From: an uncultured Clostridia bacterium | GTDB taxonomy: Bacteria > Bacillota > Clostridia > Christensenellales > UBA1242 | DNA: 64,000 nt | Direction of reading: 5' to 3' | Assembly: GCA_944377165.1 (NCBI GenBank) | Contig: CALWEJ010000001.1 | Span: 43,490-107,489, forward strand | Shown here: positions 447 to 54,893 of the stretch, piece after piece | Numbering within the stretch: the stretch's first letter is position 1 | Layout of the letters: every line of letters starts with the position of its first letter | Translations under genes and position numbers: made by a program | The notes under the pieces: model-generated | Told to the model about the DNA's origin: nothing | The model's database searches: none | What the model saw: the letters and a program-made list of their open reading frames with translations, nothing else

Positions 447-592
447 TTTCTCAACTTTTTTTAATCTCATATATAAAATTTTTATAAAATTACTTATCTT
501 TAATCAATTTCTTTAATATTATATGTAAAGGCATAAATTATAAGCATTTTATCTTGAAATTTTGTGTCGGATATGATAAACTAAATAAAACT

Positions 593-1246
593 ATGAATAT
601 TTATAGATGGTTTAGGTCTATACCTGAAGAAAATAAATTAGTCGCATATGGCAAGTTAGCTTTTATTAAAAACTTGTTTTATTTTCTTTTCAAAATTTTA
701 GTAGGTATTATATTTAAATCGTGGTTCCTTATAACTATCGCATTATATAGTTTATGTATTGGAGTAGTTAAAAATATTTGTTCGCGTGGGCTTAATTCAA
801 AGGACGACAAGAAAAATATTAATCGATATATTTTAGGTGGTGCAGTATTAACAGCTTCAAGTATATTTTATATTGTTTATTCGGTATTTCAAATGTTTAT
901 TCATACCAACTTTAGTTATAATATAATCATTGCAATAGCCATAGCAGCATTCGCAACCTATAGTATAATTGTATCGATAATTGGTGTAGTAAAAATGCGT
1001 GGCAAATCTGCATTAATTAAAGAATATAAATTGACGAACTTTGCGACCGCTTTTAATAACTTAGTTTTAACCCAAATCGCTTTACTATCTTTTACCACAA
1101 ATGCAGATACAAGTTTTTACAATGGGCTTATGGGCGTAATTGTCGGCTTTATAATCTTAGTGACAAGCATTTATTTGTTAATAGACGGTGTAAAGAAAAA
1201 GAAAAAATATTATCAAGAAATCAACGATAAGGAAATCGAAAGTTGA
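593..1246 (+). CDS. multi-pass membrane protein, unknown function
   Basis: Several hydrophobic helices and no recognisable motif. The ORF-track TTG at 554 is TTGAAA, the -35 of a TTGAAA-17-TAAACT promoter (554-582), so ATG 593 is preferred. Confidence 0.5.
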   Translation: MNIYRWFRSIPEENKLVAYGKLAFIKNLFYFLFKILVGIIFKSWFLITIALYSLCIGVVKNICSRGLNSKDDKKNINRYILGGAVLTASSIFYIVYSVFQMFIHTNFSYNIIIAIAIAAFATYSIIVSIIGVVKMRGKSALIKEYKLTNFATAFNNLVLTQIALLSFTTNADTSFYNGLMGVIVGFIILVTSIYLLIDGVKKKKKYYQEINDKEIES

Positions 1247-10293: not shown

Positions 10294-10322
10294 TTGAAAA
10301 AATACAGTTAATATATTATAAT
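10294..10322 (+). promoter_or_regulatory. sigma-A promoter of the miaB-mutSL-miaA operon
   Basis: TTGAAA-17-TATAAT, ending 9 nt before ATG 10332. No SD. Confidence 0.55.
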
Positions 10323-10331
10323 AATACTATT

Positions 10332-11666
10332 ATGAGTATAACAAATTTTGAAGGAAAAACATTTAACGTAGTCACTTATGGTTGCCAGATGAATGTGCAC
10401 GAATCTGAAAAAATACGTGGTATATTATCATCTTTAGGTATGATGGAAATTGACGACATAAATAAAGCTAATGTCGTAGTTTTTAATACTTGCTGTGTTA
10501 GAGAAGGCGCTGAAGATAGGGCTTATAACAATATAGTAGCTTTGAAGAAAATTAAAGCGACCGATAAGGATAAAATTATCGTTGTTTGTGGCTGTATGTC
10601 GCAACAGAAGAACGGTAAGTATAACTTAAAGACAAAATTACCTTTTGTTGACATTATCATAGGCACACATAACATAAACCAACTCGCAAATTATCTTATT
10701 ACATTTAATGAAACACATAAGCGCATATATGATATTTTAGAAGAACCTAATGCAAGTGTGGACGGAGTCAAATGCGTGCGTGACGACAAAACAAATGCGT
10801 ATGTTAATATTATCTATGGTTGCAATAAATTTTGTACGTATTGTATTGTTCCGTATGTACGCGGTCGTGAGAAAAGTCGCCCTGTGAAAGAAATATATGA
10901 TGAAGTAAAAGATTTAGTTCAAAATCAGGGCTATAAATTCATTACACTTTTAGGGCAGAACGTTAATTCATACGGCAAAGATTTAGATGAAAAAATGACT
11001 TTCAGTAAGTTATTGACTTATCTATGTACCATTGAAGGCGATTTCAAAATTAAATTTATGACATCACATCCAGTTGATTTCTCTGACGACTTAATTAAAG
11101 TTATGAAAAATGAGCCTAAGGTCGCTAAAACTTTGCATTTACCTGTACAGTCGGGGAGTAGTAAAGTGTTGGCACGTATGAACCGCCATTATGACATTAA
11201 ACATTATTATCACATAATAAAGAAATTGCGTCGAGCTATACCTAATATTACACTTTCGACTGACATTATTGTTGGATTCCCTGGAGAGAGTGAAAAAGAT
11301 TTTAATCAAACATTAAAACTTATAAAGAAGGTTAAATTTGACCAGATATTTGCTTTTATGTATTCAAAGCGCTCAGGAACACCAGCCGCCGAATTCGAAG
11401 ACCAAATCGATGATAAAATAAAAAATGCACGCATAAACAAATTACTTCGCCTTGAAAAGATAATTCAAAAGGACACTATTAAAAAGTATTTTAATAAGAC
11501 ATATGATTGTTTAATTAAGCAAATCAATGGTGTTGCTGTCGGAATCACAGACGGGGGGAAAGAAATATATATTCCTACATATAGATACAATAATCAAAAC
11601 TATTTTGCTAAAGTTAGAGTAGAAGATATCCGTAATCATAAACTTTCAGGAGTAATTGTTAAATGA
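10332..11666 (+). CDS. miaB: tRNA-2-methylthio-N6-dimethylallyladenosine synthase
   Basis: TYGCQMN.. N-terminal domain, radical-SAM CxxxCxxC (CNKFCTYC) and a TRAM end. Confidence 0.9.
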   Translation: MSITNFEGKTFNVVTYGCQMNVHESEKIRGILSSLGMMEIDDINKANVVVFNTCCVREGAEDRAYNNIVALKKIKATDKDKIIVVCGCMSQQKNGKYNLKTKLPFVDIIIGTHNINQLANYLITFNETHKRIYDILEEPNASVDGVKCVRDDKTNAYVNIIYGCNKFCTYCIVPYVRGREKSRPVKEIYDEVKDLVQNQGYKFITLLGQNVNSYGKDLDEKMTFSKLLTYLCTIEGDFKIKFMTSHPVDFSDDLIKVMKNEPKVAKTLHLPVQSGSSKVLARMNRHYDIKHYYHIIKKLRRAIPNITLSTDIIVGFPGESEKDFNQTLKLIKKVKFDQIFAFMYSKRSGTPAAEFEDQIDDKIKNARINKLLRLEKIIQKDTIKKYFNKTYDCLIKQINGVAVGITDGGKEIYIPTYRYNNQNYFAKVRVEDIRNHKLSGVIVK

Positions 11667-20576: not shown

Positions 20577-20602
20577 AAATACCTCTATTTAATATGCTTA
20601 AT

Positions 20603-20631: not shown

Positions 20632-20687
20632 CAAAATAAAATTTCATATCAAAAATTTATTATTTATTATAATTGAATTAAATTTGC

Positions 20688-20716
20688 TTGTTTTTTACGC
20701 AAAGATTTGATAATAT
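20688..20716 (+). promoter_or_regulatory. promoter of the Xer-like recombinase (leaderless geometry)
   Basis: TTGTTT-17-TAATAT, ending 6 nt before ATG 20723. No SD. The spacer is filled by the arm motif. Confidence 0.45.
20692..20706 (-). repeat. single copy of the palindrome arm (inverted relative to 19143-19157)
   Basis: TTTTTACGCAAAGAT is the reverse complement of ATCTTTGCGTAAAAA. Confidence 0.85.
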
Positions 20717-20722
20717 ATTAAT

Positions 20723-21775
20723 ATGTCAACAAATTATTATTTAGATAGAAATAGAAATAATATGAGAAAATTAAATGAAATGCTAACTGATTTACCTGCA
20801 TTTTGTTCAATATTTTTCATAGGAATACAAGATACAACTACTCCACTCACACGACTTAATTATGCAGTAGATATAAAGACCTTCTTCACATATTTAACTA
20901 CATATGAACAAAAATTTGTCAATCGTGATATAAAATCTATTACACTTGCTGATATAGATGGAATTGATGCTCAATGTATTGAACGATATATGGCATCTCT
21001 ATCCTACTATGACAAAGATGATGGAAAAATATTAACAAATGGCGAACGTGGTAAACTTAGAAAGCTATCTTCTCTAAGGGCGTTTTTCAAATACTTTTTC
21101 AATAAAGATATGTTAAAAGCTAACGTTGCAAGCAAGGTAGCTAGCCCTAAATTACACGAAAAACCAATTATTAGACTTGAAGCACAAGAAACCGCTGAAT
21201 TAATGTATTCGTGTGATACATTATCCGGATTTAGTGAGCATCAAAAAAAATATAACGAAAAATTTAAAATTCGCGATAATGCTATATTATCCCTATTTTT
21301 GACCACAGGAATTCGTGTAAGTGAATGCGTTGGATTAAATGTTGATGATATAAACTTTAATCTTAATTCATTTCGAGTGACACGAAAAGGTGGCAATCAA
21401 GTTATATTATATTTTGGAGAAGAAACCGCTGATGCTCTAAAAAAATATCTCTCATATAGAGAAACATTAAATCTACCAAAAGAAGAAAAAGCGCTATTTA
21501 TTTCAAGTCAAGGTAAGCGAATGATGGTTAGAGCAATGGAATATCTAGTAAAAAAATATGCTAAAATTGCTACTCCACTTAAACATATTACTCCGCATAA
21601 ATTACGTTCAACTTATGGCACTAACTTATACAATGAAACAAAGGATATTTATATAGTTGCTGAAGTTTTAGGTCATAAAGATGTAAATACTACTAAAAAA
21701 CACTACGCAGCAATAAGCGATGACGTTAGACGTTCCGTAGCAGGCAAAGTTAAATTAAATAATGACAATATGTAG
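20723..21775 (+). CDS. tyrosine site-specific recombinase, Xer-like (350 aa)
   Basis: Catalytic signature: TGIRVSE (Arg), VTRKGG (beta-hairpin Lys), HKLRSTY (HxxR), LGHKDVNTTKKHY (His..Tyr). No phage genes flank it. Confidence 0.8.
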   Translation: MSTNYYLDRNRNNMRKLNEMLTDLPAFCSIFFIGIQDTTTPLTRLNYAVDIKTFFTYLTTYEQKFVNRDIKSITLADIDGIDAQCIERYMASLSYYDKDDGKILTNGERGKLRKLSSLRAFFKYFFNKDMLKANVASKVASPKLHEKPIIRLEAQETAELMYSCDTLSGFSEHQKKYNEKFKIRDNAILSLFLTTGIRVSECVGLNVDDINFNLNSFRVTRKGGNQVILYFGEETADALKKYLSYRETLNLPKEEKALFISSQGKRMMVRAMEYLVKKYAKIATPLKHITPHKLRSTYGTNLYNETKDIYIVAEVLGHKDVNTTKKHYAAISDDVRRSVAGKVKLNNDNM

Positions 21776-21892
21776 TGTATTACGCGTATTATATACAATA
21801 CATATTGTTAAATTATTTGAATCATATCTAAAAAATAAATTTATTCAGTTTCCAATTTTTTATAAAAGATGTTTTATTTATATTACCTTTAT

Positions 21893-21930
21893 CGAACAAA
21901 TGTTTGAAAAATGTTTGACAAATGTTTGAA
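21893..21930 (+). promoter_or_regulatory. LexA operator (Cheo-type box) extended by three tandem 11-bp AAATGTTTGA(A/C) units
   Basis: CGAACAAATGTTTG at 21893-21906 compares with the Firmicutes consensus CGAACnnnnGTTCG. The repeat units are at 21898, 21909 and 21920. Confidence 0.6.
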
Positions 21931-21943
21931 AATATGATAACTT
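21915..21943 (+). promoter_or_regulatory. sigma-A promoter of lexA
   Basis: TTGACA-17-TAACTT preceded by TGA. The -35 is formed by repeat unit 2. Confidence 0.5.
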
Positions 21944-21960
21944 TACACTAGGAGATATTT

Positions 21961-22754: not shown

Positions 22755-22783
22755 TTGACTAATAATCAAAATTATTATATAAT
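22755..22783 (+). promoter_or_regulatory. consensus promoter of the PadR-fusion gene (leaderless geometry)
   Basis: TTGACT-17-TATAAT, ending 6 nt before ATG 22790. The spacer holds the 7-4-7 palindrome TAATAAT-CAAA-ATTATTA. Confidence 0.6.
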
Positions 22784-22789
22784 AATTTT

Positions 22790-24055
22790 ATGAAAACAGC
22801 GGATTTAATACCTTTAATTTTGCTCCAATTAAATACTGGCGATAAATATGGATTAGAAATAACAAAAAATATTGAAACAATTTCTAATGGAAAAATCGTC
22901 ATAAAACAACCTACTTTATACACTATCTTAAAGAAATTAGAGAAATCTAAATTTATATCATCGTATTGGGAAGATAGTGATATTGGTGGCAAACGTCATT
23001 ATTATAAAATAACTAACAATGGTAAGGCTCAAGTATCTACCTTGCCTTCTTTTGATGTCTTGCTAAACTCTATCCTATCTCAAGATGACGATGAAATTAG
23101 TAATAATGATGAAAAAGAAGATAATCAAACAATAGATAAACAAGAAGAAAATTACTTTTACAATACATCTGCGGCAATAGATAATGCTACTAAAATAGAA
23201 AATTCTTCAAACACTACAACGGATAAATATGTATCTATTTTTGATATATTACCTACTACAAGCGAAGAATCGACCATAGCCAATACAAATACAAACACTA
23301 AGCCTTCTATCCTACCGAGTGAAGATGTGTTTAAGACTGATTCTATAGATACTGCTACAACTACTGAGATTAATTTATCCAATTCTGAATTACTCAAATC
23401 AGATACTACGAACAGAGAAGAGAAATTTGCTAGCAACGAAGATATATCTAAATTTACTGAAAAACATATCGTCTCAGATGAATATAAGGAAAAATTACAC
23501 TCTATTTATTCAGCTAACGTGAGCGAATCTATAGACGACAATAAGACAGCTCAACCATTATCTTCAGATATTAAGTACGTCGATTATCGTGATTTTAAAA
23601 CTAACAAAGACTACATTTTAGCGAAGAAAACTACTAAAAATTTATTATTTAAAATTTTGTCAAGTTCGCTATATTTAGGACTAATGTTAATTATCTCTGC
23701 AGTAATTACCTCACATACAGGGAAATCTCCAATATATTATGTAATGCTTATTTTAGGATTAACCATTTTAATCTTCTATCCTTCAATTTTTGCTTTCAAT
23801 CTTGATAAATTAAGGCTGAAATATGAATTTCAACCATTTAAATTGAATACAAGAAAAAGATTAATAACTTCTATATGCGTCGAAGTATTAATAATTGTTG
23901 CTTCAATCATTCTTAATGTATGTCTAGGAATTAATGATATTTTTAACTGGACAAATTTTGCAAACTTTTATTCAATTATATTCTTAAGTAGCACTATTTT
24001 TGCAGATTTAATCTTTACCTACATTTTTATGATAAAAATAAACAAAACTAATTAA
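22790..24055 (+). CDS. PadR-family wHTH fused to a T/N/S-rich linker and a four-helix membrane domain
   Basis: N-terminus: LIPLILLQL..GDKYGLEI..QPTLYTILKKLEKSKFISSYWE..GGKRHYYKITNNG. Four hydrophobic helices lie in the last ~140 aa. Confidence 0.75.
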   Translation: MKTADLIPLILLQLNTGDKYGLEITKNIETISNGKIVIKQPTLYTILKKLEKSKFISSYWEDSDIGGKRHYYKITNNGKAQVSTLPSFDVLLNSILSQDDDEISNNDEKEDNQTIDKQEENYFYNTSAAIDNATKIENSSNTTTDKYVSIFDILPTTSEESTIANTNTNTKPSILPSEDVFKTDSIDTATTTEINLSNSELLKSDTTNREEKFASNEDISKFTEKHIVSDEYKEKLHSIYSANVSESIDDNKTAQPLSSDIKYVDYRDFKTNKDYILAKKTTKNLLFKILSSSLYLGLMLIISAVITSHTGKSPIYYVMLILGLTILIFYPSIFAFNLDKLRLKYEFQPFKLNTRKRLITSICVEVLIIVASIILNVCLGINDIFNWTNFANFYSIIFLSSTIFADLIFTYIFMIKINKTN

Positions 24056-26833: not shown

Positions 26834-27266
26834 GATGCTTAGCTATTTCCCCCGTGGCAAGTTCATCACAACGATTATTATATTTATTATCGGCGTGACC
26901 CTTTACCTTAATCCACGTTATTTTGTGAGTATTATTAAAATCAATTAATTGTTTCCATAATTCAACGTTTTGAACAGGCTTTTTACTTGCATTTCGAAAT
27001 CCATTATTTTGCCAATTTTCAATCCAATGTTCGTTAAAAGCATTTATAAGGTATGCACTGTCGCTATATAAATCGATTTCACAGGGTATTTTAATCATAT
27101 CAAGAGCCTTTATTGCTGCTGTTAATTCCATTTGATTGTTTGTGGTACTTTCAGAATATCCGCTAATTTCCCGCATACTATCTTTATAAAAAAGAACAGC
27201 GCCCCATCCACCAGCGCCTGGATTACCACTACAAGCTCCATCTGTATAAATAGTCACTTTTTTCAT
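26823..27266 (-). CDS. rnhA: ribonuclease HI
   Basis: MKKVTIYTDGACSGNPGAGGWG.. matches the RNase HI N-terminus. The longer ORF-track start overlaps the tRNA. Confidence 0.85.
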   Translation of the reverse strand: MKKVTIYTDGACSGNPGAGGWGAVLFYKDSMREISGYSESTTNNQMELTAAIKALDMIKIPCEIDLYSDSAYLINAFNEHWIENWQNNGFRNASKKPVQNVELWKQLIDFNNTHKITWIKVKGHADNKYNNRCDELATGEIAKHQKK

Positions 27267-27272
27267 ATAGTT

Positions 27273-27347
27273 TGGCAGGGGAGACGCGATTCGAACACGC
27301 AACCAATGGTTTTGGAGACCACTACTCTACCGTTGAGCCACTCCCCT
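27273..27347 (-). tRNA. tRNA-Trp (CCA anticodon), CCA end encoded
   Basis: Cloverleaf on the reverse complement, anticodon loop CTCCAAA. Confidence 0.9.
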
Positions 27348-27357
27348 ATATTCATTC

Positions 27358-27386
27358 ATTATACTACATATAAAATTTTATGTCAA
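27358..27386 (-). promoter_or_regulatory. perfect-consensus sigma-A promoter of tRNA-Trp/rnhA
   Basis: On the minus strand: TTGACA-17-TATAAT, 10 nt before the tRNA 5' end. Confidence 0.7.
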
Positions 27387-30379: not shown

Positions 30380-31479
30380 CTATTTATCCTCTTTCTGTAT
30401 TCATTAACTGCTGTATTTAATGCTTCTGCAACGAGCTTGCAGTCTTCATTCGTTGCATCTTCAAAACTTAGTCTAATTGCTCCATTTATGTAGTCTTTGC
30501 CAACTAATTGTGAAACTACTCTGTTTACTCCAGCTTTACTATTACACGCCGAACCTGTACCAATTAATATACCTTTATCTTCTAGCATATGCTGTATTGT
30601 TTCTCCGCGCACTCCTTTAAAGCATATCGATATAATATTATCAACACAATTTTCGTTTGAAACTAGCACATAATCGCATTGTAAATTATTTATTAATGTA
30701 TTTTTTTGTTCAGAGTAATTTCTTATCTTAGTATCTTTAAGTGCCGTTATAAAAGCAAGAATTGCTGGAATATTCTCTGTGCCTGAACGTAAATTATTCT
30801 CCTGTCCGCCACCTATTACGAATGGCTTAAATCTATTTATATTTTTTATATAAAGCGCACCCACTCCTTTAGGTCCGTGAATTTTATGAGCTGAAATGGT
30901 ATAAAAATCAACGCCTAATTCTTTTAAATTTATATTTAGTTTACCTACTGCTTGTACACCATCTGCGTGAACGAAAGCATTTGGGCTTATCTCTTTAGTT
31001 AATTCGACTACTTTCTTGATATCATTTATCGCACCTGTTTCATTGCTAACGTGTATGCACGACACTAAGGCTACCGATGGATCTAACTCTTTTTTTAGTT
31101 CATCCATATTAATAGACCCATTAGATAAAAGTGGAATAAATTTAACATTGTACCCTTTCTCTAGGTACATTTTAGCTGTTTCATAAACCGAACTATGTTC
31201 TCCTGCACTAAATATGTACTTCTTATCTTTCCTTGTAATACAACTATTTAAAACTGTATTATTTGATTCAGTCGCACTACCCGTAAATACAAAGTAAGAA
31301 TTTAGCGGACAATTAAAATACTTTATTAAAAAAGAACGTGCGTCTTCAAGTAATTTCTTTGACTCCAATGCTAAAGAATATAGCGCACTTGGGTTATAAA
31401 AATTCTCGCTAGCTTTTATATATGAATCTAGTGCTGATTTAGAGATTTTTGTTGTAGAAGCATTATCAAAATATAACAT
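30376..31479 (-). CDS. cysteine desulfurase (NifS/IscS family)
   Basis: PLP-lysine motif SAHKIHGPKG and the active-site loop GSACNS. Confidence 0.85.
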   Translation of the reverse strand: MLYFDNASTTKISKSALDSYIKASENFYNPSALYSLALESKKLLEDARSFLIKYFNCPLNSYFVFTGSATESNNTVLNSCITRKDKKYIFSAGEHSSVYETAKMYLEKGYNVKFIPLLSNGSINMDELKKELDPSVALVSCIHVSNETGAINDIKKVVELTKEISPNAFVHADGVQAVGKLNINLKELGVDFYTISAHKIHGPKGVGALYIKNINRFKPFVIGGGQENNLRSGTENIPAILAFITALKDTKIRNYSEQKNTLINNLQCDYVLVSNENCVDNIISICFKGVRGETIQHMLEDKGILIGTGSACNSKAGVNRVVSQLVGKDYINGAIRLSFEDATNEDCKLVAEALNTAVNEYRKRINR

Positions 31480-31485
31480 ATGATT

Positions 31486-31514
31486 ATTATAACATAATAA
31501 TTTAATTTCTACAA
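31486..31514 (-). promoter_or_regulatory. promoter of the desulfurase-thiI operon (leaderless geometry)
   Basis: On the minus strand: TTGTAG-17-TGT-TATAAT, ending 6 nt before ATG 31479. No SD. Confidence 0.5.
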
Positions 31515-33821: not shown

Positions 33822-34268
33822 CTATATAAATAAACCTATAAATCCCGCAATAATTGACCCTACTACACCGCAAACAATTACTGGTCCGGCTATTGTAAAC
33901 ATTTTTACGCAAATGCCATAAATTATTCCTTCCTTTTTAAACTCAATAGCTGGACTTGATATTGAGTTAGAAAATCCAGTTATAGGTATGACTGAACCAG
34001 CCCCGCCCCAAGCTCCTATTACGTCGTAAATGCCAACTCCTGTTAAGAAGCAAGTAATAAATATTATAGTCATCAACATACACGTACTTGTTTCACTTTC
34101 TGATAGATTAGGGAAAAAATAAGAATATAAATCAAAAAAGCCTTGTCCTAAAGCACAAATTAATCCGCCTAATAAAAAAGCTTTAAACAACGACGGCCAC
34201 GCTTTTGTTTTAGGTACTTTAGATTCTACATATAATTTATAATTAGTATTTCTTTTATTTTCATCCAT
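33822..34268 (-). CDS. spoVAC: stage V sporulation protein AC
   Basis: ..FLLGGLICALGQ.. SpoVAC signature. The TTG at 34304 reads as the -35 of TTGATT-17-TAAACA, which ends 7 nt before ATG 34268. Confidence 0.85.
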   Translation of the reverse strand: MDENKRNTNYKLYVESKVPKTKAWPSLFKAFLLGGLICALGQGFFDLYSYFFPNLSESETSTCMLMTIIFITCFLTGVGIYDVIGAWGGAGSVIPITGFSNSISSPAIEFKKEGIIYGICVKMFTIAGPVIVCGVVGSIIAGFIGLFI

Positions 34269-34443
34269 ATTTAAATGTTTAACAAAGTTTTTAATTTTAA
34301 TCAAAAATGACTGTTAATGTTAAAAAATTTTTAAAAATTTTAAAAAATCTATAAATTAAATGAGTTTTTGCTTGTTTTTAACAAATTTTTTTTAAAATAA
34401 ATAAATTTTATATTTCGTTGCAAACTATACTCGAGGTGAAAAT

Positions 34444-38024: not shown

Positions 38025-39068
38025 TTAAGAAAATTTACCTGTAAAATATAAAATTAAAAGCACAGCCCCTACAACAAATATAGTTGCAATTAATAGTGTC
38101 ATAAATATTCTCAACGCATTTTTAGGCAATTTCCCTATCTTACCTGTTTGTCCGTTCATAACAACTGTATATTTTCTATTCTTCACAACTTTATTGACAA
38201 AATAGACTGGCAAGAGGCAATAATTATATTTTCTATCCAAATAATTTGTATTTAATGTTATGTGAACAATACTGTCGCACTGATATTTCATTAGAAGTTC
38301 TCTTTTAATATCTTTTTCAATTATTTGTTCAGCAACCTTAACACAATCATTAAACATTTTATCCTGATACTCTAGCATATAACCGTGTAAGAAATCGTCT
38401 TCAAAATCTACCGCAGAACTATAATCAAACGGCATAATGCTACGCAAATCACGTTGTTCCAAATTTGAATTTGCTTCTACTGTAAGATTGCGGTAGGCTT
38501 TATCAAAAGTCCCAAAGACACTTTTTTGACAAGTAATAGTCTTTGTATGACCTTCTTTATCTGTAATTGTTTTTGAGTAATTAAAAACTCCGCTATATCT
38601 CGTCGATGTTTGCATATCAAATACAAACGTATTAACGTACGCACCATTTATGTCTTTTAGCATTAAATCTTTAAAAATTTTTTTATTAACATAGAATTTT
38701 TTCCTTAATGTTGATTTAAATTTTTTTAGTGCATCTGCTTTATTGAACGAAAAAGGAATAATCGAGTCAATATACATAATACGTTTCTTACTACTCTTTT
38801 CAATAGTACTGCCTCCGCAATATGGACATTCAGCTTGCATTTGATATTTTGAAAGCATTATGTTAGCGCCACACGAATTACATTTTATATTTCTAAGAGA
38901 ATTAGCAAGTTCATCAACCTTTAAATCAACATTTTCATCGAAAGATTTTTTCTTAAAATTATAATTATATTTTATCGGAAATATAGAACCACAACTTTCG
39001 CATACGTTGCCCCTATCTTTCGGACTAAAATATAAATTTCCCCCACAATTTTTACAATTTTTAATCAT
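38025..39068 (-). CDS. double zinc-ribbon protein with C-terminal membrane anchor, unknown function
   Basis: CxxC..CxxC twice (CKNCGG..CESCG; CNSCGA..CPYCGG) and a terminal TM helix. Confidence 0.55.
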   Translation of the reverse strand: MIKNCKNCGGNLYFSPKDRGNVCESCGSIFPIKYNYNFKKKSFDENVDLKVDELANSLRNIKCNSCGANIMLSKYQMQAECPYCGGSTIEKSSKKRIMYIDSIIPFSFNKADALKKFKSTLRKKFYVNKKIFKDLMLKDINGAYVNTFVFDMQTSTRYSGVFNYSKTITDKEGHTKTITCQKSVFGTFDKAYRNLTVEANSNLEQRDLRSIMPFDYSSAVDFEDDFLHGYMLEYQDKMFNDCVKVAEQIIEKDIKRELLMKYQCDSIVHITLNTNYLDRKYNYCLLPVYFVNKVVKNRKYTVVMNGQTGKIGKLPKNALRIFMTLLIATIFVVGAVLLILYFTGKFS

Positions 39069-39074
39069 ATGTTT

Positions 39075-39103
39075 ATTATATCAAATATATAAATTTCTTT
39101 CAA
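39075..39103 (-). promoter_or_regulatory. promoter of the zinc-ribbon gene (leaderless geometry)
   Basis: On the minus strand: TTGAAA-17-TGA-TATAAT, ending 6 nt before ATG 39068. No SD. Confidence 0.55.
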
Positions 39104-39402: not shown

Positions 39403-39426
39403 ATATTTAATTGTATCCTTAAAGGA

Positions 39427-41717: not shown

Positions 41718-43058
41718 TTATACGAAATTCTTAAAAAACTTTTCTCTTAATAACATATATTTAGCATTAGATATTCTATAACTATTTTCAACTGCTGAAG
41801 TGAACATTTTATTAATAGTATTTATAAATTTTACATCTTCAATTACAAATATATTTTGAACACACGTATTTATGTATTCTCTGTTGATAGTATAAGAACC
41901 GCACAATGCATAATTATCATCTATTATTATTGCATTATATCGTATATATCCATCATAAAGATATACGTTCGCTCCATAGAGCGCCAACTCTTTTGCATAT
42001 GCACGTGAAGCAAAATACTTACTATGTTTATTTGTCTTAAGTGGCACCATTAACCTTACTTCAATGTTAGAATGTATTGCAAAACGTAATAGCGACATTA
42101 TACTCTCTGTCGGAATAAATTCTTCAAGTTGAAGTTGAATAGATTTTTTAGCTAAGCATATTGCTTTTATGATTACTAGTTCTAAGTCATTAGAATATTC
42201 ATTTGTCACATACTGAACCTTAGATTGACTTTGCAGATTATCATTTTCTTTAGTTTGATAAACTATATATTTTTTACTTGCGAATATAATATCTTGATGA
42301 ATAGCTAAATTTATGTCTTGAGCAATATCTCCTTTAAATTTCAAAAACATATTTGAAACTTCATATTTACCTTTAAGTTGATTTTTCTTTAAATCAAGGT
42401 CAGCACAAAAACAAACCTTTCCGTCAATAGAAATTATATTTCGCATATTTTGGTACATATGTGAGCAAGTGTTATGTCTGCTGAATTTATATATTTTAAT
42501 GCCTGCGCGTTTTAATTGCTTTATCAATTTAAAACTTATATGGAAGTCGTGAAGAATCTTTACCATTACTCCTGCTTTTGCCTTAGAAATTAATGCTAAT
42601 TTTATTTCTTCAAATTGTTTTACATTAACAGATGTAAGTTCAAATAAAATATATTTACTCGCCTGATTTATTTCCTTAATGAAAGCTGAAGTAAATTTAC
42701 CTAAGTCGTTATAAACATCAATTAAATTGTGTTCAGTTAAGCGCGCATTATATCCCAATTTATTAAATAGATACAATTCATCATACTCACTTGCTTGTTC
42801 TTTAGATAATTTGTCATTTATAAGGTTTTTATAAATTATATCTTCTTGTTGTTTTATTAATAATGCTTGTTTATTTTTAAAATACGCGATTCTAAATGAA
42901 ATATAGACAATATATCCTATTATAGATGTAAACAAGAATATTATCGACCATACAATCATATTTCTCGGCTTATCGCGCTCAAAAATAATCATGACTGATA
43001 CCATGACTATATATAATAAAATTAATATAATAGCTAAAATTATCCTAAGAGCTAACAC
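41718..43058 (-). CDS. cardiolipin-synthase-like PLD-family protein with both HKD motifs degenerate
   Basis: Cls-type N-terminus (two TM helices, ..IFERDKPRNMIVW..). Motif positions read NMRNIISIDG and IRYNAIIIDD instead of HxKxxxxD. GTG start. Confidence 0.7.
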   Translation of the reverse strand: MLALRIILAIILILLYIVMVSVMIIFERDKPRNMIVWSIIFLFTSIIGYIVYISFRIAYFKNKQALLIKQQEDIIYKNLINDKLSKEQASEYDELYLFNKLGYNARLTEHNLIDVYNDLGKFTSAFIKEINQASKYILFELTSVNVKQFEEIKLALISKAKAGVMVKILHDFHISFKLIKQLKRAGIKIYKFSRHNTCSHMYQNMRNIISIDGKVCFCADLDLKKNQLKGKYEVSNMFLKFKGDIAQDINLAIHQDIIFASKKYIVYQTKENDNLQSQSKVQYVTNEYSNDLELVIIKAICLAKKSIQLQLEEFIPTESIMSLLRFAIHSNIEVRLMVPLKTNKHSKYFASRAYAKELALYGANVYLYDGYIRYNAIIIDDNYALCGSYTINREYINTCVQNIFVIEDVKFINTINKMFTSAVENSYRISNAKYMLLREKFFKNFV

Positions 43059-43064
43059 GTTATT

Positions 43065-43093
43065 ATCTTAACAAATTATTGTGTTTATTGCAA
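43065..43093 (-). promoter_or_regulatory. promoter of the cls-like operon (leaderless geometry)
   Basis: On the minus strand: TTGCAA-17-TAAGAT, ending 6 nt before GTG 43058. Confidence 0.5.
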
Positions 43094-43395: not shown

Positions 43396-44313
43396 TTATT
43401 GGTAAATTATTGTAATAACTCGACTAATATTATCGTCATATAATGAAGTTATTTTTAATGTTATACTTCCATAATCGTGAAAATATAGAATTAAGAAAGG
43501 CGGAGTATTTAAAACTAAACTTGCATTATCTGAATATAGTTCACACTCTACTTCTTGAATAATAGATTCGCCGTCTGTTGATTTTATTTTAAAAGAAAAT
43601 GAAAAAGATTTGTTGTTGGTGTAAATTACATCATCTTCGAATAAATTTCCATTAGAGTCATACAAAAATATGTTTTGCTCTAACGAAGAATTATTTCCAT
43701 TTCCGCTGGATTGATTTTCACCATCGTCATTAGATTCATTTTTGTCTTGATTGTCATCTAAATTGCTATCAGACGAGTCAGGACTCTCTGGTGTTGTTTG
43801 ATTATTTTCGTTATCCGAATCCGTCGAATTATTATCTTCAGTTGTAGTAGGTGGCGATTGTTCGTTATCGTTATTATTAGCATTTGGGTCTTCAATCTCC
43901 GTATCATCTTCTCCCACTGTGGAACTGTCTCCTATGCTGGAATCAGAATCATCATCTGCTTCATCTTTATTCTCTGTATTATCAGTATTTGGTTTATTAG
44001 TTTCAATATTGCTACCATCAGGGTTTGTGTTATTATTCTCATTGTCGGAATCATCTGAACCTATCGAACCTTCATTATTGTCATTAGGTTTTTCATCATT
44101 TGTATTACTGGCTTGACCATCGCTTAATTCCGAATCCGAATCATTTTCAGTACTATCTTCATCGCCTGGTTTAGTTTGTTCATTTGTCTGAACGTTATCC
44201 GTATAATTGTTATTAGCTCCCTTAGAATTAGGTACATAAAAAATTAAGAATAACGTCAAAAACACGATTATTGCAGTGCAATATATAGCAAAAAATATCG
44301 ACTTTTTCTTCAC
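43396..44313 (-). CDS. membrane-anchored, highly acidic D/N/S-rich protein with a small C-terminal beta-rich domain
   Basis: GTG 44313 gives MKKKSIFFAIYC.. (signal anchor). The ORF-track TTG at 44349 is the -35 TTGCCA of the promoter. Confidence 0.55.
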   Translation of the reverse strand: MKKKSIFFAIYCTAIIVFLTLFLIFYVPNSKGANNNYTDNVQTNEQTKPGDEDSTENDSDSELSDGQASNTNDEKPNDNNEGSIGSDDSDNENNNTNPDGSNIETNKPNTDNTENKDEADDDSDSSIGDSSTVGEDDTEIEDPNANNNDNEQSPPTTTEDNNSTDSDNENNQTTPESPDSSDSNLDDNQDKNESNDDGENQSSGNGNNSSLEQNIFLYDSNGNLFEDDVIYTNNKSFSFSFKIKSTDGESIIQEVECELYSDNASLVLNTPPFLILYFHDYGSITLKITSLYDDNISRVITIIYQ

Positions 44314-44320
44314 AAATTTA

Positions 44321-44349
44321 ATTTTATATAATTTACCATTTTTTGGCAA
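44321..44349 (-). promoter_or_regulatory. promoter of the acidic-protein gene (leaderless geometry)
   Basis: On the minus strand: TTGCCA-17-TAAAAT, ending 7 nt before GTG 44313. Confidence 0.5.
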
Positions 44350-46045: not shown

Positions 46046-47269
46046 CTAACCTAATACATTTTTGCCAGCTAGATAACCGGTTGACCACGCGATTTGCAAA
46101 TTAAATCCGCCTGTAAGTGCATCTAAATCTAATACTTCACCCACGAAATACAAATTTTTTATTAGTTTACTTTCACACGTCTTTGAATTAATTTCTTTTA
46201 CGTCAACTCCGCCGGCAGTCACAATACCTACATTTATATTATCTAATGATTTGATTTTCAAGTCAAATCTTTTTAGTCCATTTATTAATTTTAATTTATC
46301 TTCTTTATTAATATCTGCAATTTTCTTATTTTGTATCTTAACGTGACAAATAAAATAATCTACTATACTTCGTGGCAAAAGCGTCAAAAGATAAGTCCTT
46401 AAATCTTTTTTAGCATACTCGGCGAATTCTCTAGTAAATTTTTCTTTTAATTCTTCATCAGTTAATGCTGGTTTAAAATCAATTATAGCGCTTGAATTTT
46501 CTAAATTTAGCCTATTAATTTTACTAGACATAGTTAAAGCTAGTGGACCTGTTAGTGAATTATAAGTAAATAGCATCTCTCCTATTTCACTTTTTATAAT
46601 CTTGTTCCCAACTTTAATAGATAATGTCACATTCTTTAAACTAAGCCCATTAAGTACACTTATATCATCTTTTATTATGATTGGGCAAAGCGCACTTTTT
46701 ACTTCGACTATTTTATGACCGAACTTTATAGCAATTTTATATCCTAAATCTGAAGCACCCGTGCCTGAATACGACAATCCGCCTGTAGCAATAATTATAC
46801 TTCTACTAGTGTATGTATTATTGTTTTCACACTTTATATAGAATAAATCATTATTTTTATTTATGTCTAAAATTGTCTTATTTAGTTCTACATTAACTTT
46901 ATTAATTTTAAGTAAAGTTGTAAGGGTTTTTATTACATCGCTTGATTTGTCACTTTTAGGGAAAACCCTATTCCCACGTTCAGTTTTAAGCTCTAAACCT
47001 GCATTAGAGAAAAATTCCATAGTATCTTTCGGCGAAAAACTATTGAGCGCACTATACATAAATTTTGAATTTGAAATGATATTATTAAGATGATTTTCTA
47101 TACTGCTATTGTTGGTTAAATTGCATCTACCCTTTCCCGTAATATATAACTTTTTACCTAATTTTTCGTTATGGTCTATTATAAGGCAATTCAAGCCCCT
47201 TTTGCTTGCGATAATTGCGGACATCATTCCACTAGCTCCGCCGCCGATTATTATAACATCATATATCAT
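46046..47269 (-). CDS. HI0933/YhiN-family FAD-dependent oxidoreductase
   Basis: YDVIIIGGGASGMMSAI dinucleotide-binding motif and the C-terminal ..GGFNLQIAWSTG.. Confidence 0.8.
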   Translation of the reverse strand: MIYDVIIIGGGASGMMSAIIASKRGLNCLIIDHNEKLGKKLYITGKGRCNLTNNSSIENHLNNIISNSKFMYSALNSFSPKDTMEFFSNAGLELKTERGNRVFPKSDKSSDVIKTLTTLLKINKVNVELNKTILDINKNNDLFYIKCENNNTYTSRSIIIATGGLSYSGTGASDLGYKIAIKFGHKIVEVKSALCPIIIKDDISVLNGLSLKNVTLSIKVGNKIIKSEIGEMLFTYNSLTGPLALTMSSKINRLNLENSSAIIDFKPALTDEELKEKFTREFAEYAKKDLRTYLLTLLPRSIVDYFICHVKIQNKKIADINKEDKLKLINGLKRFDLKIKSLDNINVGIVTAGGVDVKEINSKTCESKLIKNLYFVGEVLDLDALTGGFNLQIAWSTGYLAGKNVLG

Positions 47270-47275
47270 ATGTTT

Positions 47276-47304
47276 ATGATAACACATATTTAATTTTTTG
47301 TCTA
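47276..47304 (-). promoter_or_regulatory. promoter of the FAD-protein/plsC/S1 operon (leaderless geometry)
   Basis: On the minus strand: TAGACA-17-TGT-TATCAT, ending 6 nt before ATG 47269. Confidence 0.5.
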
Positions 47305-51656: not shown

Positions 51657-52343
51657 TCAAACTCCTAAAAGTGCTAAAGGAATATAAATATAATTATAAA
51701 TAATTGATAGATACCAACTAAGAATACTGAAATTCGTAAATGCTTCTATAATTAACGATAGTGCTAATATTAAAAGGATAATTATATTACTATTTTTAAT
51801 ACTAAAATGTATGAATTTATTGTCCGCACGCATAAATGAAGTGACAAACTTAAATCCGTCTAAAGGATAAATAGGCAAGATATTAAACAGTGCTAGGAAA
51901 CTATTAACTATCATAAAATATTCTAGAATTATAAAGATATAATCCATTGCTAAATTAACTGTACCTACTGTGTTCATTAAAATGGCATATATGACTGATG
52001 CGATTAAACCTAAAATAAAATTAGCTATAACTCCAGATGATGAAACAATCCTTATACCCTGCCTGTACTTTTTAAAATTAAGCGGATTTACAGGTGTAGG
52101 CTTTGCCCAACCTATTCCAAATAATAGGAAGAAGATAAAGCCTAAAAAGGATAAGTGCTTAAATGGATTTAGTGTTAATCTCCCTGCTAATTTTGCAGTG
52201 TTGTCACCCATTTTGTAAGCAGTTAAAGCGTGTGCAAATTCGTGTGCAGTAAGCGATATGAAAAACACAACTACGGTAATTAAAAATAATATTACTGCTT
52301 GCTCAGGCGAATTATAATTGTTAAATAGAATATAGTACAACAC
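51657..52343 (-). CDS. site-2 protease family (M50) zinc metalloprotease
   Basis: HEFAHALTAY motif in a polytopic protein. GTG start. Confidence 0.8.
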   Translation of the reverse strand: MLYYILFNNYNSPEQAVILFLITVVVFFISLTAHEFAHALTAYKMGDNTAKLAGRLTLNPFKHLSFLGFIFFLLFGIGWAKPTPVNPLNFKKYRQGIRIVSSSGVIANFILGLIASVIYAILMNTVGTVNLAMDYIFIILEYFMIVNSFLALFNILPIYPLDGFKFVTSFMRADNKFIHFSIKNSNIIILLILALSLIIEAFTNFSILSWYLSIIYNYIYIPLALLGV

Positions 52344-52350
52344 TTATATA

Positions 52351-52379
52351 ATTATATCAAAAATATGCTTCTTTATCAA
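52351..52379 (-). promoter_or_regulatory. promoter of the M50-scpAB operon (leaderless geometry)
   Basis: On the minus strand: TTGATA-17-TGA-TATAAT, ending 7 nt before GTG 52343. Confidence 0.5.
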
Positions 52380-54856: not shown

Positions 54857-54868
54857 ATCAAATTATAC

Positions 54869-54893
54869 TAAAAAGCCTTTCATAGAAAGGCTG
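54869..54893 (-). terminator. secF terminator
   Basis: AGCCTTTC-ATA-GAAAGGCT perfect stem plus a T-run on the minus strand. Confidence 0.6.

What the first reader, a model, noticed from the sequence alone, without database searches (positions are those of the whole stretch)
22755..22792. Recurrent promoter-abuts-start-codon geometry: many leaderless mRNAs, some with GTG starts
At least nine transcription units show a near-consensus -35, a 17-nt spacer and a -10 that ends 5-10 nt before the start codon, with no Shine-Dalgarno. The -10-to-start distances are given in nt below. PadR fusion: TTGACT/TATAAT, 6, ATG 22790. Xer-like recombinase: TTGTTT/TAATAT, 6, ATG 20723. Zinc-ribbon gene: TTGAAA/TATAAT, 6, ATG 39068. 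Desulfurase-thiI: TTGTAG/TGTTATAAT, 6, ATG 31479. FAD protein: TAGACA/TATCAT, 6, ATG 47269. cls-like: TTGCAA/TAAGAT, 6, GTG 43058. M50 protease: TTGATA/TATAAT, 7, GTG 52343. Acidic protein: TTGCCA/TAAAAT, 7, GTG 44313. spoVAC: TTGATT/TAAACA, 7, ATG 34268. Looser cases are miaB (9 nt), the membrane protein at 593 (10 nt) and recJ (5 nt, weak -35). Other genes in the same window, such as rpsT, serS, rny, lexA, yajC and secD, have classical leaders with GGAG-type SDs, so the contrast is real. Leaderless translation at this frequency is usually associated with Actinobacteria, Deinococcus and archaea rather than Firmicutes. The pattern also shows that four upstream TTG starts in the ORF track (554, 2028, 34304, 44349) fall within promoter DNA; those at 554, 34304 and 44349 are the -35 hexamers themselves.
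Basis: seen in the sequence. Interest (0 to 1): 0.55.

Follow-up and report, generated by a model that had tools for sequence, protein, structure and literature searches.

The report
Many leaderless genes in gut Clostridia
In this uncultured, AT-rich gut Clostridia bacterium about a third of transcription units have a full promoter ending 6-7 bases before the start codon, so their mRNAs probably start at the start codon with no ribosome-binding leader, which is well known in Actinobacteria and Deinococcus but was rare in the two Clostridia whose transcription-start maps I read.

Summary
All nine claimed sites read as described. Seven pass a strict sigma-A promoter test with the -10 ending 6/7 nt before the start. 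Xer is weaker but supported by comparison with relatives, and spoVAC is weak. I found one more case (holA, 3607). Of 30 first genes of transcription units, 8 are strict hits. Dinucleotide shuffles give 0.22 on average, and 0 of 2000 reach 8. The promoter-to-start offset profile peaks sharply at 6-7 nt in the window and in 11 related loci (28 hits in 175 genes). It does not peak in 680 kb of other AT-rich Firmicutes (8 hits in 544 genes). Orthologues keep the geometry although the promoter sequences have diverged. In close relatives the same PadR, Xer and M50 start codons are preceded by a short leader with a Shine-Dalgarno sequence. This validates the start codons and shows that leaders were lost by small deletions. 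The best explanation is genuine leaderless transcription and translation of the GeneMarkS-2 "group C" type, with ATG or GTG at +1. The remaining genes have Shine-Dalgarno sequences on very short leaders. No transcription start data exist for this organism. The mechanism is known; the lineage is new for it. Interest is moderate.

The parts
22755..22792 (+). PadR-family gene. -35 TTGACT (22755-22760), 17-nt spacer, -10 TATAAT (22778-22783), 6 nt, ATG 22790.
   Evidence: L152 has the same promoter plus a 29-nt stretch containing AAGGGG before the same ATG, so the window has a 23-nt deletion. The junction is identical in 5 independent assemblies. The PadR domain starts at residue 10.
20688..20725 (+). 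Xer-like recombinase. -35 TTGTTT, 17-nt spacer, TGa-TAATAT (20711-20716), 6 nt, ATG 20723.
   Evidence: Score 8, below the strict cut-off. The homologous promoter in L152 and L082 is followed by 29 and 53 nt containing AAAGGA before the same ATG. The junction is identical in 5 assemblies.
39066..39103 (-). Zn-ribbon protein. -35 TTGAAA (39103-39098), 17-nt spacer, TGa-TATAAT (39080-39075), 6 nt, ATG 39068.
   Evidence: Orthologues in L031 and L007 keep -35/17/-10/6/ATG.
31477..31514 (-).
   Evidence: The aminotransferase-V domain starts at residue 3. The L082 orthologue reads TTGTGT-17-TGgTATAAT-7-ATG.
47267..47304 (-). HI0933-like FAD protein. -35 TAGACA (47304-47299), 17-nt spacer, TGt-TATCAT (47281-47276), 6 nt, ATG 47269.
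   Evidence: The Rossmann GGGASG motif begins at residue 9, so no downstream start is possible. 9 of 11 orthologues keep the -10 at 6-7 nt, and L006 uses GTG.
43056..43093 (-). Cardiolipin-synthase-like (PLD) gene. -35 TTGCAA, 17-nt spacer, TGt-TAAGAT (43070-43065), 6 nt, GTG 43058.
   Evidence: L031 has GTG at 6 nt. L002, L006 and L008 have ATG at the aligned codon at 7-8 nt.
52341..52379 (-). M50-family protease. -35 TTGATA (52379-52374), 17-nt spacer, TGa-TATAAT (52356-52351), 7 nt, GTG 52343.
   Evidence: L001 and L031 have the same geometry with GTG. L002-L005 and L008-L010 have the same GTG 14-15 nt after the -10, preceded by GAGGG/GGAG, which validates the GTG start.
44311..44349 (-). 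Acidic low-complexity membrane-anchored protein. -35 TTGCCA (44349-44344), 17-nt spacer, -10 TAAAAT (44326-44321), 7 nt, GTG 44313.
   Evidence: L031 and L005 orthologues have GTG at 6 nt, and further GTG cases appear. Public gene calls start at TTG 44349, which is the -35 hexamer.
The promoter lies in the 3' end of comEC.
   Evidence: The L001 orthologue reads TTGCAT-18-TATAAT-6-ATG. holA identity.
34266..34304 (-). spoVAC, a doubtful member. TTGATT, 17-nt spacer, TAAACA, 7 nt, ATG 34268.
   Evidence: The -10 lacks the final T and fails the strict test. The L082 orthologue (90% identical) has GGAG 5 nt before its ATG. From background knowledge, spoVA operons are usually driven by a forespore sigma factor.
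10294..10334 (+). miaB, near-leaderless. TTGAAA-17-TATAAT (10317-10322), 9 nt, ATG 10332, no Shine-Dalgarno sequence.
   Evidence: miaB identity.
554..595 (+). Membrane protein, near-leaderless. TTGAAA (554-559), 17-nt spacer, TGa-TAAACT (577-582), 10 nt, ATG 593, no Shine-Dalgarno sequence.
   Evidence: Public gene calls use ATG 593.
54854..54892 (-). recJ. A terminator hairpin (54892-54874) overlaps a weak -35, followed by TATAAT (54867-54862), 5 nt, ATG 54856, no Shine-Dalgarno sequence.
   Evidence: All 10 orthologues have the terminator followed by 15-25 nt with a -10-like hexamer and no Shine-Dalgarno sequence. recJ identity.
27264..27386 (-). Related oddity. Promoter TTGACA-17-TATAAT (27386-27358), then tRNA-Trp (27347-27273), then 6 nt, then ATG 27266 of rnhA with no Shine-Dalgarno sequence.
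   Evidence: In L152 the same tRNA is followed by 96 nt that contain a promoter abutting rnhA.

Best explanation
These are genuine leaderless transcription units. The housekeeping sigma-A RNA polymerase binds a canonical Firmicute promoter (TTGnnn, 17 nt, usually a TGn-extended TAnnnT). Because the -10 ends 6-7 nt before the start codon, transcription starts on the A of ATG or the G of GTG. The mRNA therefore has no 5' UTR and no Shine-Dalgarno sequence, and it is translated by ribosomes that recognise a 5'-terminal AUG or GUG with initiator tRNA (inferred from the mechanism established in mycobacteria, Deinococcus and E. coli).

The organism uses two modes. About 27-43% of units are leaderless or have leaders of 4 nt or less. 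The rest, including the highly expressed genes rpsT, secD and yajC, use strong AGGAG-type Shine-Dalgarno sequences on unusually short leaders of about 10-30 nt.

The trait belongs to a clade of uncultured Clostridia with about 30% GC, labelled Christensenella-like or Ca. Onthoplasma in the public records. It is evolutionarily fluid: individual genes switch between a short leader with a Shine-Dalgarno sequence and no leader, through small deletions that place the start codon exactly at +1.

Shown: geometry, statistics, lineage specificity, conservation, start-codon validity. Inferred: the transcription start position and the mode of translation.
For: - Geometry at all sites.
- Offset peak at 6-7 nt in the window: 6+2 hits against about 0.3 per offset elsewhere. 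8 of 30 unit-first genes against 0.22 in dinucleotide shuffles, 0 of 2000 reaching 8, Poisson 2e-7.
- ORF-independent check: 8 of the 24 promoter+RTG coincidences open the true 228-446 aa genes, while 14 of the other 16 open ORFs of 29 aa or fewer.
- Eleven related loci: 20+8 hits at 6/7 nt in 175 genes, and every locus has 1-4 hits.
- Controls: AT-rich Sedimentibacter, Acholeplasma, Izemoplasma and similar give 0+1 in 188 genes. Thirty further AT-rich metagenome loci give 2+5 in 356 genes, which is background level.
- Orthologues keep the spacing while the hexamers and spacers diverge, for FAD, cls, M50, Zn-ribbon, acidic protein, holA and IscS.
- Start codons are fixed by N-terminal domains and by Shine-Dalgarno sequences before the same codon in relatives, for PadR, Xer and M50.
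- The junctions are identical in 5 independent assemblies.
- Held-out DNA just outside the window: a SpoU methyltransferase reads TTGACT-17-TAGTAT-6-ATG, and two other units have -10 to ATG gaps of 20-22 nt with a Shine-Dalgarno sequence.
- Start codons at the hits are ATG 22, GTG 13, TTG 1. This is consistent with the ATG/GTG-only rule for leaderless initiation (PMC4633059).
- The 6-8 nt distance equals that reported for M. tuberculosis leaderless genes (PMC6028130).
Against: - There is no 5'-end mapping, ribosome profiling or N-terminal proteomics for this organism. The transcription start is inferred only from the promoter consensus.
- Consensus matches are abundant in 30% GC DNA.
- The related loci are syntenic, so the 28 hits come from about a dozen gene families and are not independent.
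- The closest relative sampled over the PadR-spoVAC region (L082) has only 1 hit in 18 genes, and Shine-Dalgarno sequences precede PadR, Xer, spoVAC and rnhA there. The frequency therefore varies even within the genus.
- spoVAC is weak.
- TTG is also rare among genes with a Shine-Dalgarno sequence (2 of 130), so its absence at the hits is not diagnostic.
- GTG at a leaderless 5' end works poorly in E. coli (PMC4633059).
- The sample is 64 kb plus flanks, not a genome.
Confidence: 0.8

Rival explanations
1. Chance. In a genome with 30% GC, TTGnnn-17-TAnnnT matches are everywhere, and some will fall next to start codons.
For: The tool's scan finds about as many promoter-like sites as in shuffled sequence.
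Against: - The positional peak at 6-7 nt is far above shuffles and above other offsets.
- It is absent in 680 kb of other AT-rich Firmicutes.
- The geometry is conserved in orthologues with diverged sequence.
- The coincidences are bimodal: either true gene starts, or ORFs of mostly under 30 aa.
Confidence: 0.02
2. The promoters are real but the start codons are mis-assigned. Translation really begins at a downstream in-frame codon, so the first codons act as a leader.
For: Start codons were chosen from ORFs. Some public calls differ: cls relatives are called at 428 aa and the acidic protein at 317 aa.
Against: - No downstream candidate start has a Shine-Dalgarno sequence, except the GGAGGAGGAG that encodes the FAD Gly-Gly-Gly motif.
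- Pfam domains begin at residues 3, 4 and 10.
- The first residues are conserved in orthologues. In relatives the very same codon is preceded by a Shine-Dalgarno sequence at the right spacing, for PadR, Xer and M50.
Confidence: 0.04
3. The genes are mostly transcribed from other promoters further upstream (or by read-through) and translated from A/U-rich unstructured leaders without a Shine-Dalgarno sequence. The abutting promoter would be minor or silent.
For: - Several candidates have long upstream intergenic regions (PadR 244 nt, cls 337 nt).
- In C. phytofermentans, apparent leaderless TSSs usually coexist with an upstream TSS and an RBS (PMC5171806).
- holA and recJ sit directly behind other genes.
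Against: - This does not explain why the -35/-10 pair is held at exactly 6-7 nt across orthologues, nor why deletions ended exactly there.
- Unlike the C. phytofermentans cases, these genes retain no RBS.
- recJ is preceded by a terminator in all 11 genomes.
- No strong upstream promoter is seen for PadR.
Confidence: 0.12
4. The elements are operators or promoters of other sigma factors that only resemble sigma-A sites. This applies to spoVAC and perhaps to other sporulation genes.
For: The spoVAC -10 is TAAACA, and its orthologue in L082 has a Shine-Dalgarno sequence. From background knowledge, spoVA operons are forespore-specific in model Firmicutes.
Against: This applies to at most one or two of the sites. 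The others are near-consensus sigma-A promoters with TGn extensions, in front of housekeeping genes.
Confidence: 0.02

Closest known systems
Leaderless transcriptomes of Mycobacterium and Deinococcus (GeneMarkS-2 'group C' genomes)
   Same: - The Pribnow box lies 6-8 nt before the start codon of first genes in operons.
- About 25-50% of operons are leaderless, and the remaining genes use a Shine-Dalgarno sequence (PMC6028130).
- ATG or GTG at +1 is necessary and sufficient, and TTG is not used (PMC4633059).
- Here: 27-43% of 30 units, with ATG 22 / GTG 13 / TTG 1.
   Different: - Here the genome is a Clostridia with 30% GC.
- The promoters carry a clear TTG -35 and a TGn-extended -10, rather than a bare TAnnnT.
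- Nothing has been measured experimentally.
- The frequency varies strongly between close relatives.
Predicted leaderless genes of Lactococcus/Streptococcus, Oenococcus/Leuconostoc and Mycoplasma (Zheng et al. 2011)
   Same: Same phylum, low GC, a TAtAAT box with a strong upstream TG, and up to 16.6% of genes (PMC3160421). Here strict hits are 8 of 56 genes (14%) in the window and 28 of 175 (16%) in relatives.
   Different: That survey names two Firmicute clades in which leaderless genes concentrate, Lactobacillales and Mycoplasma, and the word 'Clostridi' does not occur in the paper. The present clade consists of uncultured Christensenellales-like MAGs.
Clostridia with mapped transcription starts (C. 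difficile, C. phytofermentans)
   Same: Same class, same sigma-A promoter type, same AGGAG Shine-Dalgarno sequence.
   Different: - C. difficile has 6 leaderless mRNAs among 1646 TSSs (PMC8237595), or 15 genes (PMC7438776), and typical leaders of 20-60 nt.
- In C. phytofermentans 4% of TSSs are potentially leaderless, but those genes keep an RBS and an upstream TSS (PMC5171806).
- Here about a third of units lack any leader, and the leaders with a Shine-Dalgarno sequence are only about 10-30 nt.
tRNA-punctuated, leaderless mitochondrial mRNAs (relevant to the rnhA oddity only)
   Same: The coding sequence starts a few nucleotides after a tRNA 3' end, without a Shine-Dalgarno sequence, so tRNA processing would create the mRNA 5' end.
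   Different: This is a resemblance recalled from background knowledge, a single case, and no processing data exist. The tRNA here encodes its own CCA.

Membership tests
Bacterial leaderless mRNA genes (promoter abuts start codon) | The -10 box ends about 6-8 nt upstream of the start codon, with a positional peak across genes. | tested here: met
   Peak at 6-7 nt in the window and in 11 related loci, and none in the controls.
Bacterial leaderless mRNA genes (promoter abuts start codon) | No Shine-Dalgarno sequence between the promoter and the start, and none before any alternative downstream start. | tested here: met
   The 6-7 nt discriminators are A/T-rich. No downstream start is supported by a Shine-Dalgarno sequence.
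Bacterial leaderless mRNA genes (promoter abuts start codon) | The start codon is correctly assigned. | tested here: met
   Domains start at residues 3-10. The same codon has a Shine-Dalgarno sequence in relatives for PadR, Xer and M50. Public gene calls agree for 5 of 6 genes.
Bacterial leaderless mRNA genes (promoter abuts start codon) | The primary transcript 5' end (triphosphate) maps to the first base of the start codon, with a 5' UTR of about 5 nt or less. | not testable with these tools
   Needs dRNA-seq, Cappable-seq or 5' RACE. Here it is only inferred from the -10 position.
Bacterial leaderless mRNA genes (promoter abuts start codon) | Translation initiates at the 5'-terminal AUG or GUG. 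| not testable with these tools
   Needs N-terminal proteomics, ribosome profiling or reporter assays.
Bacterial leaderless mRNA genes (promoter abuts start codon) | The 5'-terminal codon is ATG or GTG, not TTG or CTG. | tested here: inconclusive
   ATG 22, GTG 13 and TTG 1 among the hits. But TTG is also rare among genes with a Shine-Dalgarno sequence (2 of 130). The GTG enrichment (36% vs 11%, P = 7e-4) rests on non-independent orthologues.
GeneMarkS-2 group C genome (frequent leaderless transcription) | A sizeable fraction (about 25-50%) of operons genome-wide is leaderless, and a dual start model is needed. | tested here: inconclusive
   8-13 of 30 units in 64 kb, 1 of 3 in held-out flanks, and 16% of genes in relatives. 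No whole genome was available, and L082 has only 1 hit in 18 genes.
Firmicute sigma-A promoter with extended -10 | TTGaca -35, a 17±1 nt spacer, and TGnTAtaaT. | tested here: met
   In all 8 strict window sites the spacer is 17 nt (18 for holA), and 6 of 8 have TGn. The same architecture occurs in the promoters with leaders for serS, secD, yajC and rpsT.

The most novel reading that the evidence does not exclude
A whole clade of uncultured, low-GC gut Clostridia with apparently compact gene spacing (Christensenellales-like) has shifted to a mixed translation-initiation regime. About a third of its transcription units, including GTG-initiated ones, are truly leaderless, and leaders are still being lost through small deletions that place the start codon at +1. 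Examples are PadR (23 nt lost), Xer (about 23 nt lost), and rnhA (about 90 nt lost, leaving the gene 6 nt behind a tRNA). If so, efficient 5'-terminal AUG/GUG initiation evolved independently inside Firmicutes. Many gene starts in gut MAG catalogues, such as the acidic protein called from its own -35 hexamer, would then be mis-set.
Probability: 0.55. Interest if true: 0.65.

Novelty: new member of a known kind. Interest (0 to 1): 0.5.

Why it matters
Leaderless initiation is regarded as an Actinobacteria, Deinococcus and archaea trait. In the Clostridia whose transcription starts have been mapped it is nearly absent.

A Clostridia clade with about 30% leaderless units would add an independent origin within Firmicutes. 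It would also be a natural system for asking what makes a Firmicute ribosome accept 5'-terminal AUG and GUG. Pairs of near relatives that differ only by deletion of the leader are ready-made reporter constructs.

Practically, gene callers trained on Shine-Dalgarno models can mis-set starts in these abundant gut MAGs. Regulatory inference also has to allow for there being almost no 5' UTR space: no T-box on serS and no riboswitches were found.

It remains a sequence-based prediction of a known mechanism.

Tried and rejected
1. Using the presence of promoter-like matches as evidence. Rejected because the tool's scan gives counts close to shuffles. I used the offset distribution instead.
2. TTG avoidance as a signature of leaderless starts. 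Rejected as uninformative because TTG is also rare at starts with a Shine-Dalgarno sequence.
3. The GGAG upstream of ATG 47227/47224 as a possible real FAD start. Rejected because it is the coding sequence of the GGGASG Rossmann motif.
4. Reading the spoVAC upstream region as a forespore sigma-G-type promoter. A CATTTAA -10 would put the transcription start inside the ORF. This was left unresolved and the site was downgraded.
5. The GeneMarkS-2 supplement, to see which 36 Firmicutes are in group C. It is not held as text.
6. A literature search for leaderless plus Christensenell*. Two hits, neither with either term in its title or abstract; I did not open them.
7. Rfam at gathering threshold for leader RNAs that would mark long 5' UTRs. 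Only 9 tRNAs were found.
8. An automatic MAFFT alignment of the Xer upstream regions mis-aligned them. The shared 'tttttacgcaaagat-tga-TAtAAT' promoter was aligned by eye.
9. An internal GTG at 33276 (179-aa ORF) and the antisense ATG at 51991 (75 aa), both from the ORF-independent scan. These were judged to be chance because the -35 is poor.
Full report
**What the window is.** The window has about 30% GC. Its closest public relatives are uncultured gut Clostridia MAGs labelled 'uncultured Christensenella sp.', 'uncultured Clostridia bacterium' and 'Candidatus Onthoplasma'. NCBI places the last of these in Christensenellaceae. The same species recurs in several independent assemblies, one of them a 202,839-bp contig.

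**Checking the observation.** All nine sites read as claimed: a TTG-type -35, a 17-nt spacer, a TAnnnT -10, then 6 or 7 nt, then ATG or GTG. In seven of the nine a TG precedes the -10 by one base, which is the extended -10 typical of Firmicutes.
- The tool's own consensus scan independently lists the PadR (22755..22783, 11/12), Zn-ribbon, M50, FAD, acidic-protein, miaB and membrane-protein sites.
- The looser cases are also correct: miaB 9 nt, membrane protein 10 nt, recJ 5 nt.
- The TTG 'ORF starts' at 554, 34304 and 44349 are exactly the -35 hexamers, and TTG 2028 lies in the comEC promoter spacer.

**Is it more than chance?** Presence of promoter-like matches is not evidence here. The scan finds 157, 154 and 112 matches per 20 kb, against 133, 121 and 116 in shuffles. 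Position is what matters.
- I defined a strict site: -35 at least 3/6, -10 at least 4/6 with A2 and T6, and a total of at least 9 including one point for TG. I then counted strict sites at every offset from candidate starts. The window shows 6 at offset 6 and 2 at offset 7, against about 0.3 per other offset.
- With start codons fixed independently of promoters, 8 of 30 first genes of transcription units are strict hits. Dinucleotide shuffles of the same upstream regions give a mean of 0.22 and a maximum of 3, and none of 2000 reaches 8. A Poisson test against the other offsets gives P = 2e-7.
- Without using ORFs at all: of 276 strict promoter-like sites, 24 are followed by ATG or GTG at 6/7 nt. 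Eight open the real genes (228-446 aa). Of the other 16, 14 open ORFs of 29 aa or fewer.
- The eight are PadR, IscS-like, Zn-ribbon, FAD, cls-like, M50, the acidic protein and holA (3607).
- Xer scores 8, just under the cut-off. spoVAC fails because its -10 (TAAACA) lacks the final T.

**Controls for AT-richness.** The same scan was run on other sequence sets.
- Eleven loci from the same clade (193 kb, FAD orthologue 63-74% identical): 20 hits at offset 6 and 8 at offset 7 in 175 genes. Every locus has 1-4 hits.
- AT-rich Sedimentibacter, Acholeplasmataceae, Izemoplasma, Catellicoccus and similar (233 kb, 188 genes): 0 and 1.
- Thirty further metagenome loci with 27-35% GC (446 kb, 356 genes): 2 and 5, which is the background level.
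- Loci with higher GC: none.
The peak is therefore a property of this lineage and not of base composition.

**Comparative evidence.** Orthologue upstream regions keep the geometry although the hexamers and spacers differ.
- FAD: 9 of 11 orthologues have the -10 at 6-7 nt, and L006 uses GTG.
- cls: GTG at 6 nt in L031, and ATG at 7-8 nt at the aligned codon in L002, L006 and L008.
- Zn-ribbon: L031 and L007.
- Acidic protein: GTG at 6 nt in L031 and L005.
- holA: L001.
- IscS-like: L082, at 7 nt.

Three genes are especially informative because they differ between relatives.
- PadR. L152 (rny 95% identical to the window's) has the same TTGACT-17-TATAAT promoter, followed by 29 nt containing AAGGGG before the same ATG. 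The alignment shows one clean 23-nt gap in the window. L082 also has AAAGGGG.
- Xer. L152 and L082 share the 'tttttacgcaaagat..TATAAT' promoter but have 29 and 53 nt containing AAAGGA before the same ATG.
- M50. The window, L001 and L031 have GTG 7 nt after the -10. Seven other relatives have the same GTG 14-15 nt after the -10, preceded by GAGGG or GGAG.

These cases show two things. They validate the start codons, because a Shine-Dalgarno sequence points to the same codon. They also show that genes move between a short leader with a Shine-Dalgarno sequence and no leader, through small indels that end exactly at the +1 geometry. The PadR and Xer junctions are identical in five independent assemblies that differ by a nearby SNP, so they are not assembly artefacts.

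**Start codon validity from the proteins.** Pfam domains begin at residue 3 (aminotransferase V), residue 4 (HI0933-like Rossmann) and residue 10 (PadR). The only 'Shine-Dalgarno-like' sequence downstream of a candidate start is the GGAGGAGGAG that encodes the FAD GGGASG motif. Public gene calls use the same starts for spoVAC, the membrane protein, FAD, M50 and cls. For the acidic protein, however, they start at TTG 44349, which is the -35 hexamer.

**Held-out test.** I obtained DNA just outside the window from another assembly of the same species. It contains three new unit starts.
- A SpoU-type methyltransferase reads TTGACT-17-TAGTAT-6-ATG.
- The other two have TGaTATAAT followed by 20-22 nt containing GGAG or GAGG.

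**How the rest of the window initiates.** Genes with a Shine-Dalgarno sequence have strong AGGAG-type sites but very short leaders. The -10 to ATG distances are 17 nt (lexA), 21 (rpsT), 23 (secD), 26 (serS, yajC) and 37 (rny), which corresponds to about 10-30 nt of leader. In C. difficile the typical leader is 20-60 nt (PMC8237595). No riboswitch, T-box or other leader RNA reaches the Rfam gathering score. tRNA genes also start 8-15 nt after their -10 boxes. Promoters in this genome therefore sit close against whatever they transcribe, and the leaderless genes are the extreme of that trend.

**Mechanism (inferred).** With the -10 at -12..-7 (or -13..-8), the A of ATG or the G of GTG is the initiating nucleotide. 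The 5'-triphosphate AUG/GUG mRNA is then read by ribosomes carrying initiator tRNA.
- The start codons at the hits are ATG 22, GTG 13 and TTG 1.
- This matches the rule established with reporters in mycobacteria, where ATG or GTG at the 5' end is necessary and sufficient and TTG or CTG fails (PMC4633059).
- TTG is also rare at starts with a Shine-Dalgarno sequence here (2 of 130), so only the GTG enrichment (36% vs 11%) is suggestive, and it rests on a few gene families.
- The 6-8 nt distance is the one reported for M. tuberculosis (PMC6028130).

**Comparison with what is known.**
- Leaderless transcription at 25-50% of operons defines GeneMarkS-2 group C. That group covers 90% of Actinobacteria and 97% of Deinococcus-Thermus but only 36 of 1064 Firmicutes.
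- Zheng et al. predicted leaderless genes in Firmicutes mainly in Lactococcus/Streptococcus, Oenococcus/Leuconostoc and Mycoplasma, at up to 16.6% of genes and with a strong TG before the box (PMC3160421).
- Clostridia with mapped starts have almost none: 6 of 1646 TSSs or 15 genes in C. difficile. In C. phytofermentans 4% of TSSs are potentially leaderless, but those genes keep an RBS.
- Here 8 (strict) to 13 (including Xer, spoVAC, miaB, the membrane protein and recJ) of 30 units are leaderless, as are 14-16% of all genes of 100 aa or more.
- I found no paper linking leaderless initiation to this clade.
The mechanism is therefore a known kind. The lineage, and the visible gain and loss between near relatives, are new.

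**Caveats.**
- No RNA or protein data exist, so transcription starts are inferred.
- The related loci are syntenic, so their hits are not independent.
- L082, a close relative, has only 1 hit in 18 genes over the region where the window has four or five. The frequency is therefore strain- or species-specific, and the window may be at the high end.
- spoVAC should be dropped or treated as uncertain.
- An upstream promoter that gives transcripts with a leader but no Shine-Dalgarno sequence cannot be excluded for individual genes.

**Verdict.** It is a new member of a known kind, of moderate interest, and would be clearly worth a Cappable-seq or GeneMarkS-2 follow-up on the whole MAG.

Noticed in passing
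window 27264-27386 (minus strand); L152 1411-1585: rnhA (RNase HI, ATG 27266) begins 6 nt after the encoded CCA end of tRNA-Trp (27347-27273). It has no Shine-Dalgarno sequence and no promoter of its own. The tRNA starts 10 nt after a perfect TTGACA-17-TATAAT. In L152 the same tRNA is followed by 96 nt that contain TTGACA-19-TATAAT-7-ATG for rnhA, so the window has lost about 90 nt. The rnhA mRNA 5' end may be created by tRNA processing, as in mitochondrial tRNA punctuation.
   Followed up: partly
window 43175-43287 (+) and 39328-39902 (-): tRNA-Thr(CGT) starts 8 nt after the -10 of TTGAAA-17-TGnTAATAT, which leaves almost no 5' leader for RNase P. The six-tRNA array (Pro-Met-Asp-Phe-Tyr-Thr) starts 15 nt after the -10 of TTGACA-17-TAAACT.
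   Followed up: no
window 20577-20640 (minus strand, upstream of serS 20576): serS has only 26 nt between a TGaTATAAT -10 and its ATG. No T-box leader is detected anywhere in the window, which is unusual for a Firmicute seryl-tRNA synthetase.
   Followed up: partly
window about 21890-21945 (+), upstream of lexA 21961: Three tandem copies of AAATGTTTGA(A/C)AA, beginning with CGAACAAATGTTTG, resemble LexA (Cheo-box) operators. They overlap the -35 TTGACA of the lexA promoter. The leader is only about 10 nt long.
   Followed up: no
window 43396-44349 (minus strand): Public gene calls start the acidic, Asp/Asn/Ser-rich protein at TTG 44349 (317 aa), which is the -35 hexamer of its own promoter. 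The 305-aa form starting at GTG 44313 is absent from the 15-billion-protein collection. The protein has one N-terminal hydrophobic segment and no Pfam match.
   Followed up: partly
L002-L005, L008-L010 (M50 orthologue upstream regions): In these relatives the M50 gene has only 14-15 nt between the -10 and GTG, and these include GAGGG or GGAG. The predicted leader is about 8 nt long and consists essentially of the Shine-Dalgarno sequence at the very 5' end of the mRNA.
   Followed up: no
window 44388-45395 (minus strand): The S1-domain protein is only 335 aa long. It scores far below the rpsA cut-off (125 vs 577 bits) and is not fused to IspH, whereas its top-scoring NCBIfam model (PRK00087) is a bifunctional IspH/S1 protein. 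It is possibly relevant to initiation that is independent of the Shine-Dalgarno sequence and of S1.
   Followed up: no
window 54874-54892 and orthologues: A conserved terminator hairpin (AGCCTTTC...GAAAGGCT) lies directly upstream of recJ in all 11 genomes. Its 3' arm and T-tract double as the weak -35 and spacer of the recJ -10 box.
   Followed up: no
window 22761-22777 (+): The spacer of the PadR promoter contains the palindrome AATAAT-caaa-ATTATT. It could be an autoregulatory operator, or simply chance in AT-rich DNA. L152 does not have it.
   Followed up: no
window 19107-19136 (minus strand), gap 18334-19290: A strong promoter-like site (TTGATA-18-TATAAT, 11/12) and a 16-bp-stem terminator-like hairpin (18669-18706, +) lie in a roughly 950-nt stretch with no ORF of 80 aa or more and no Rfam hit. 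This may be a small gene or an unannotated RNA.
   Followed up: no
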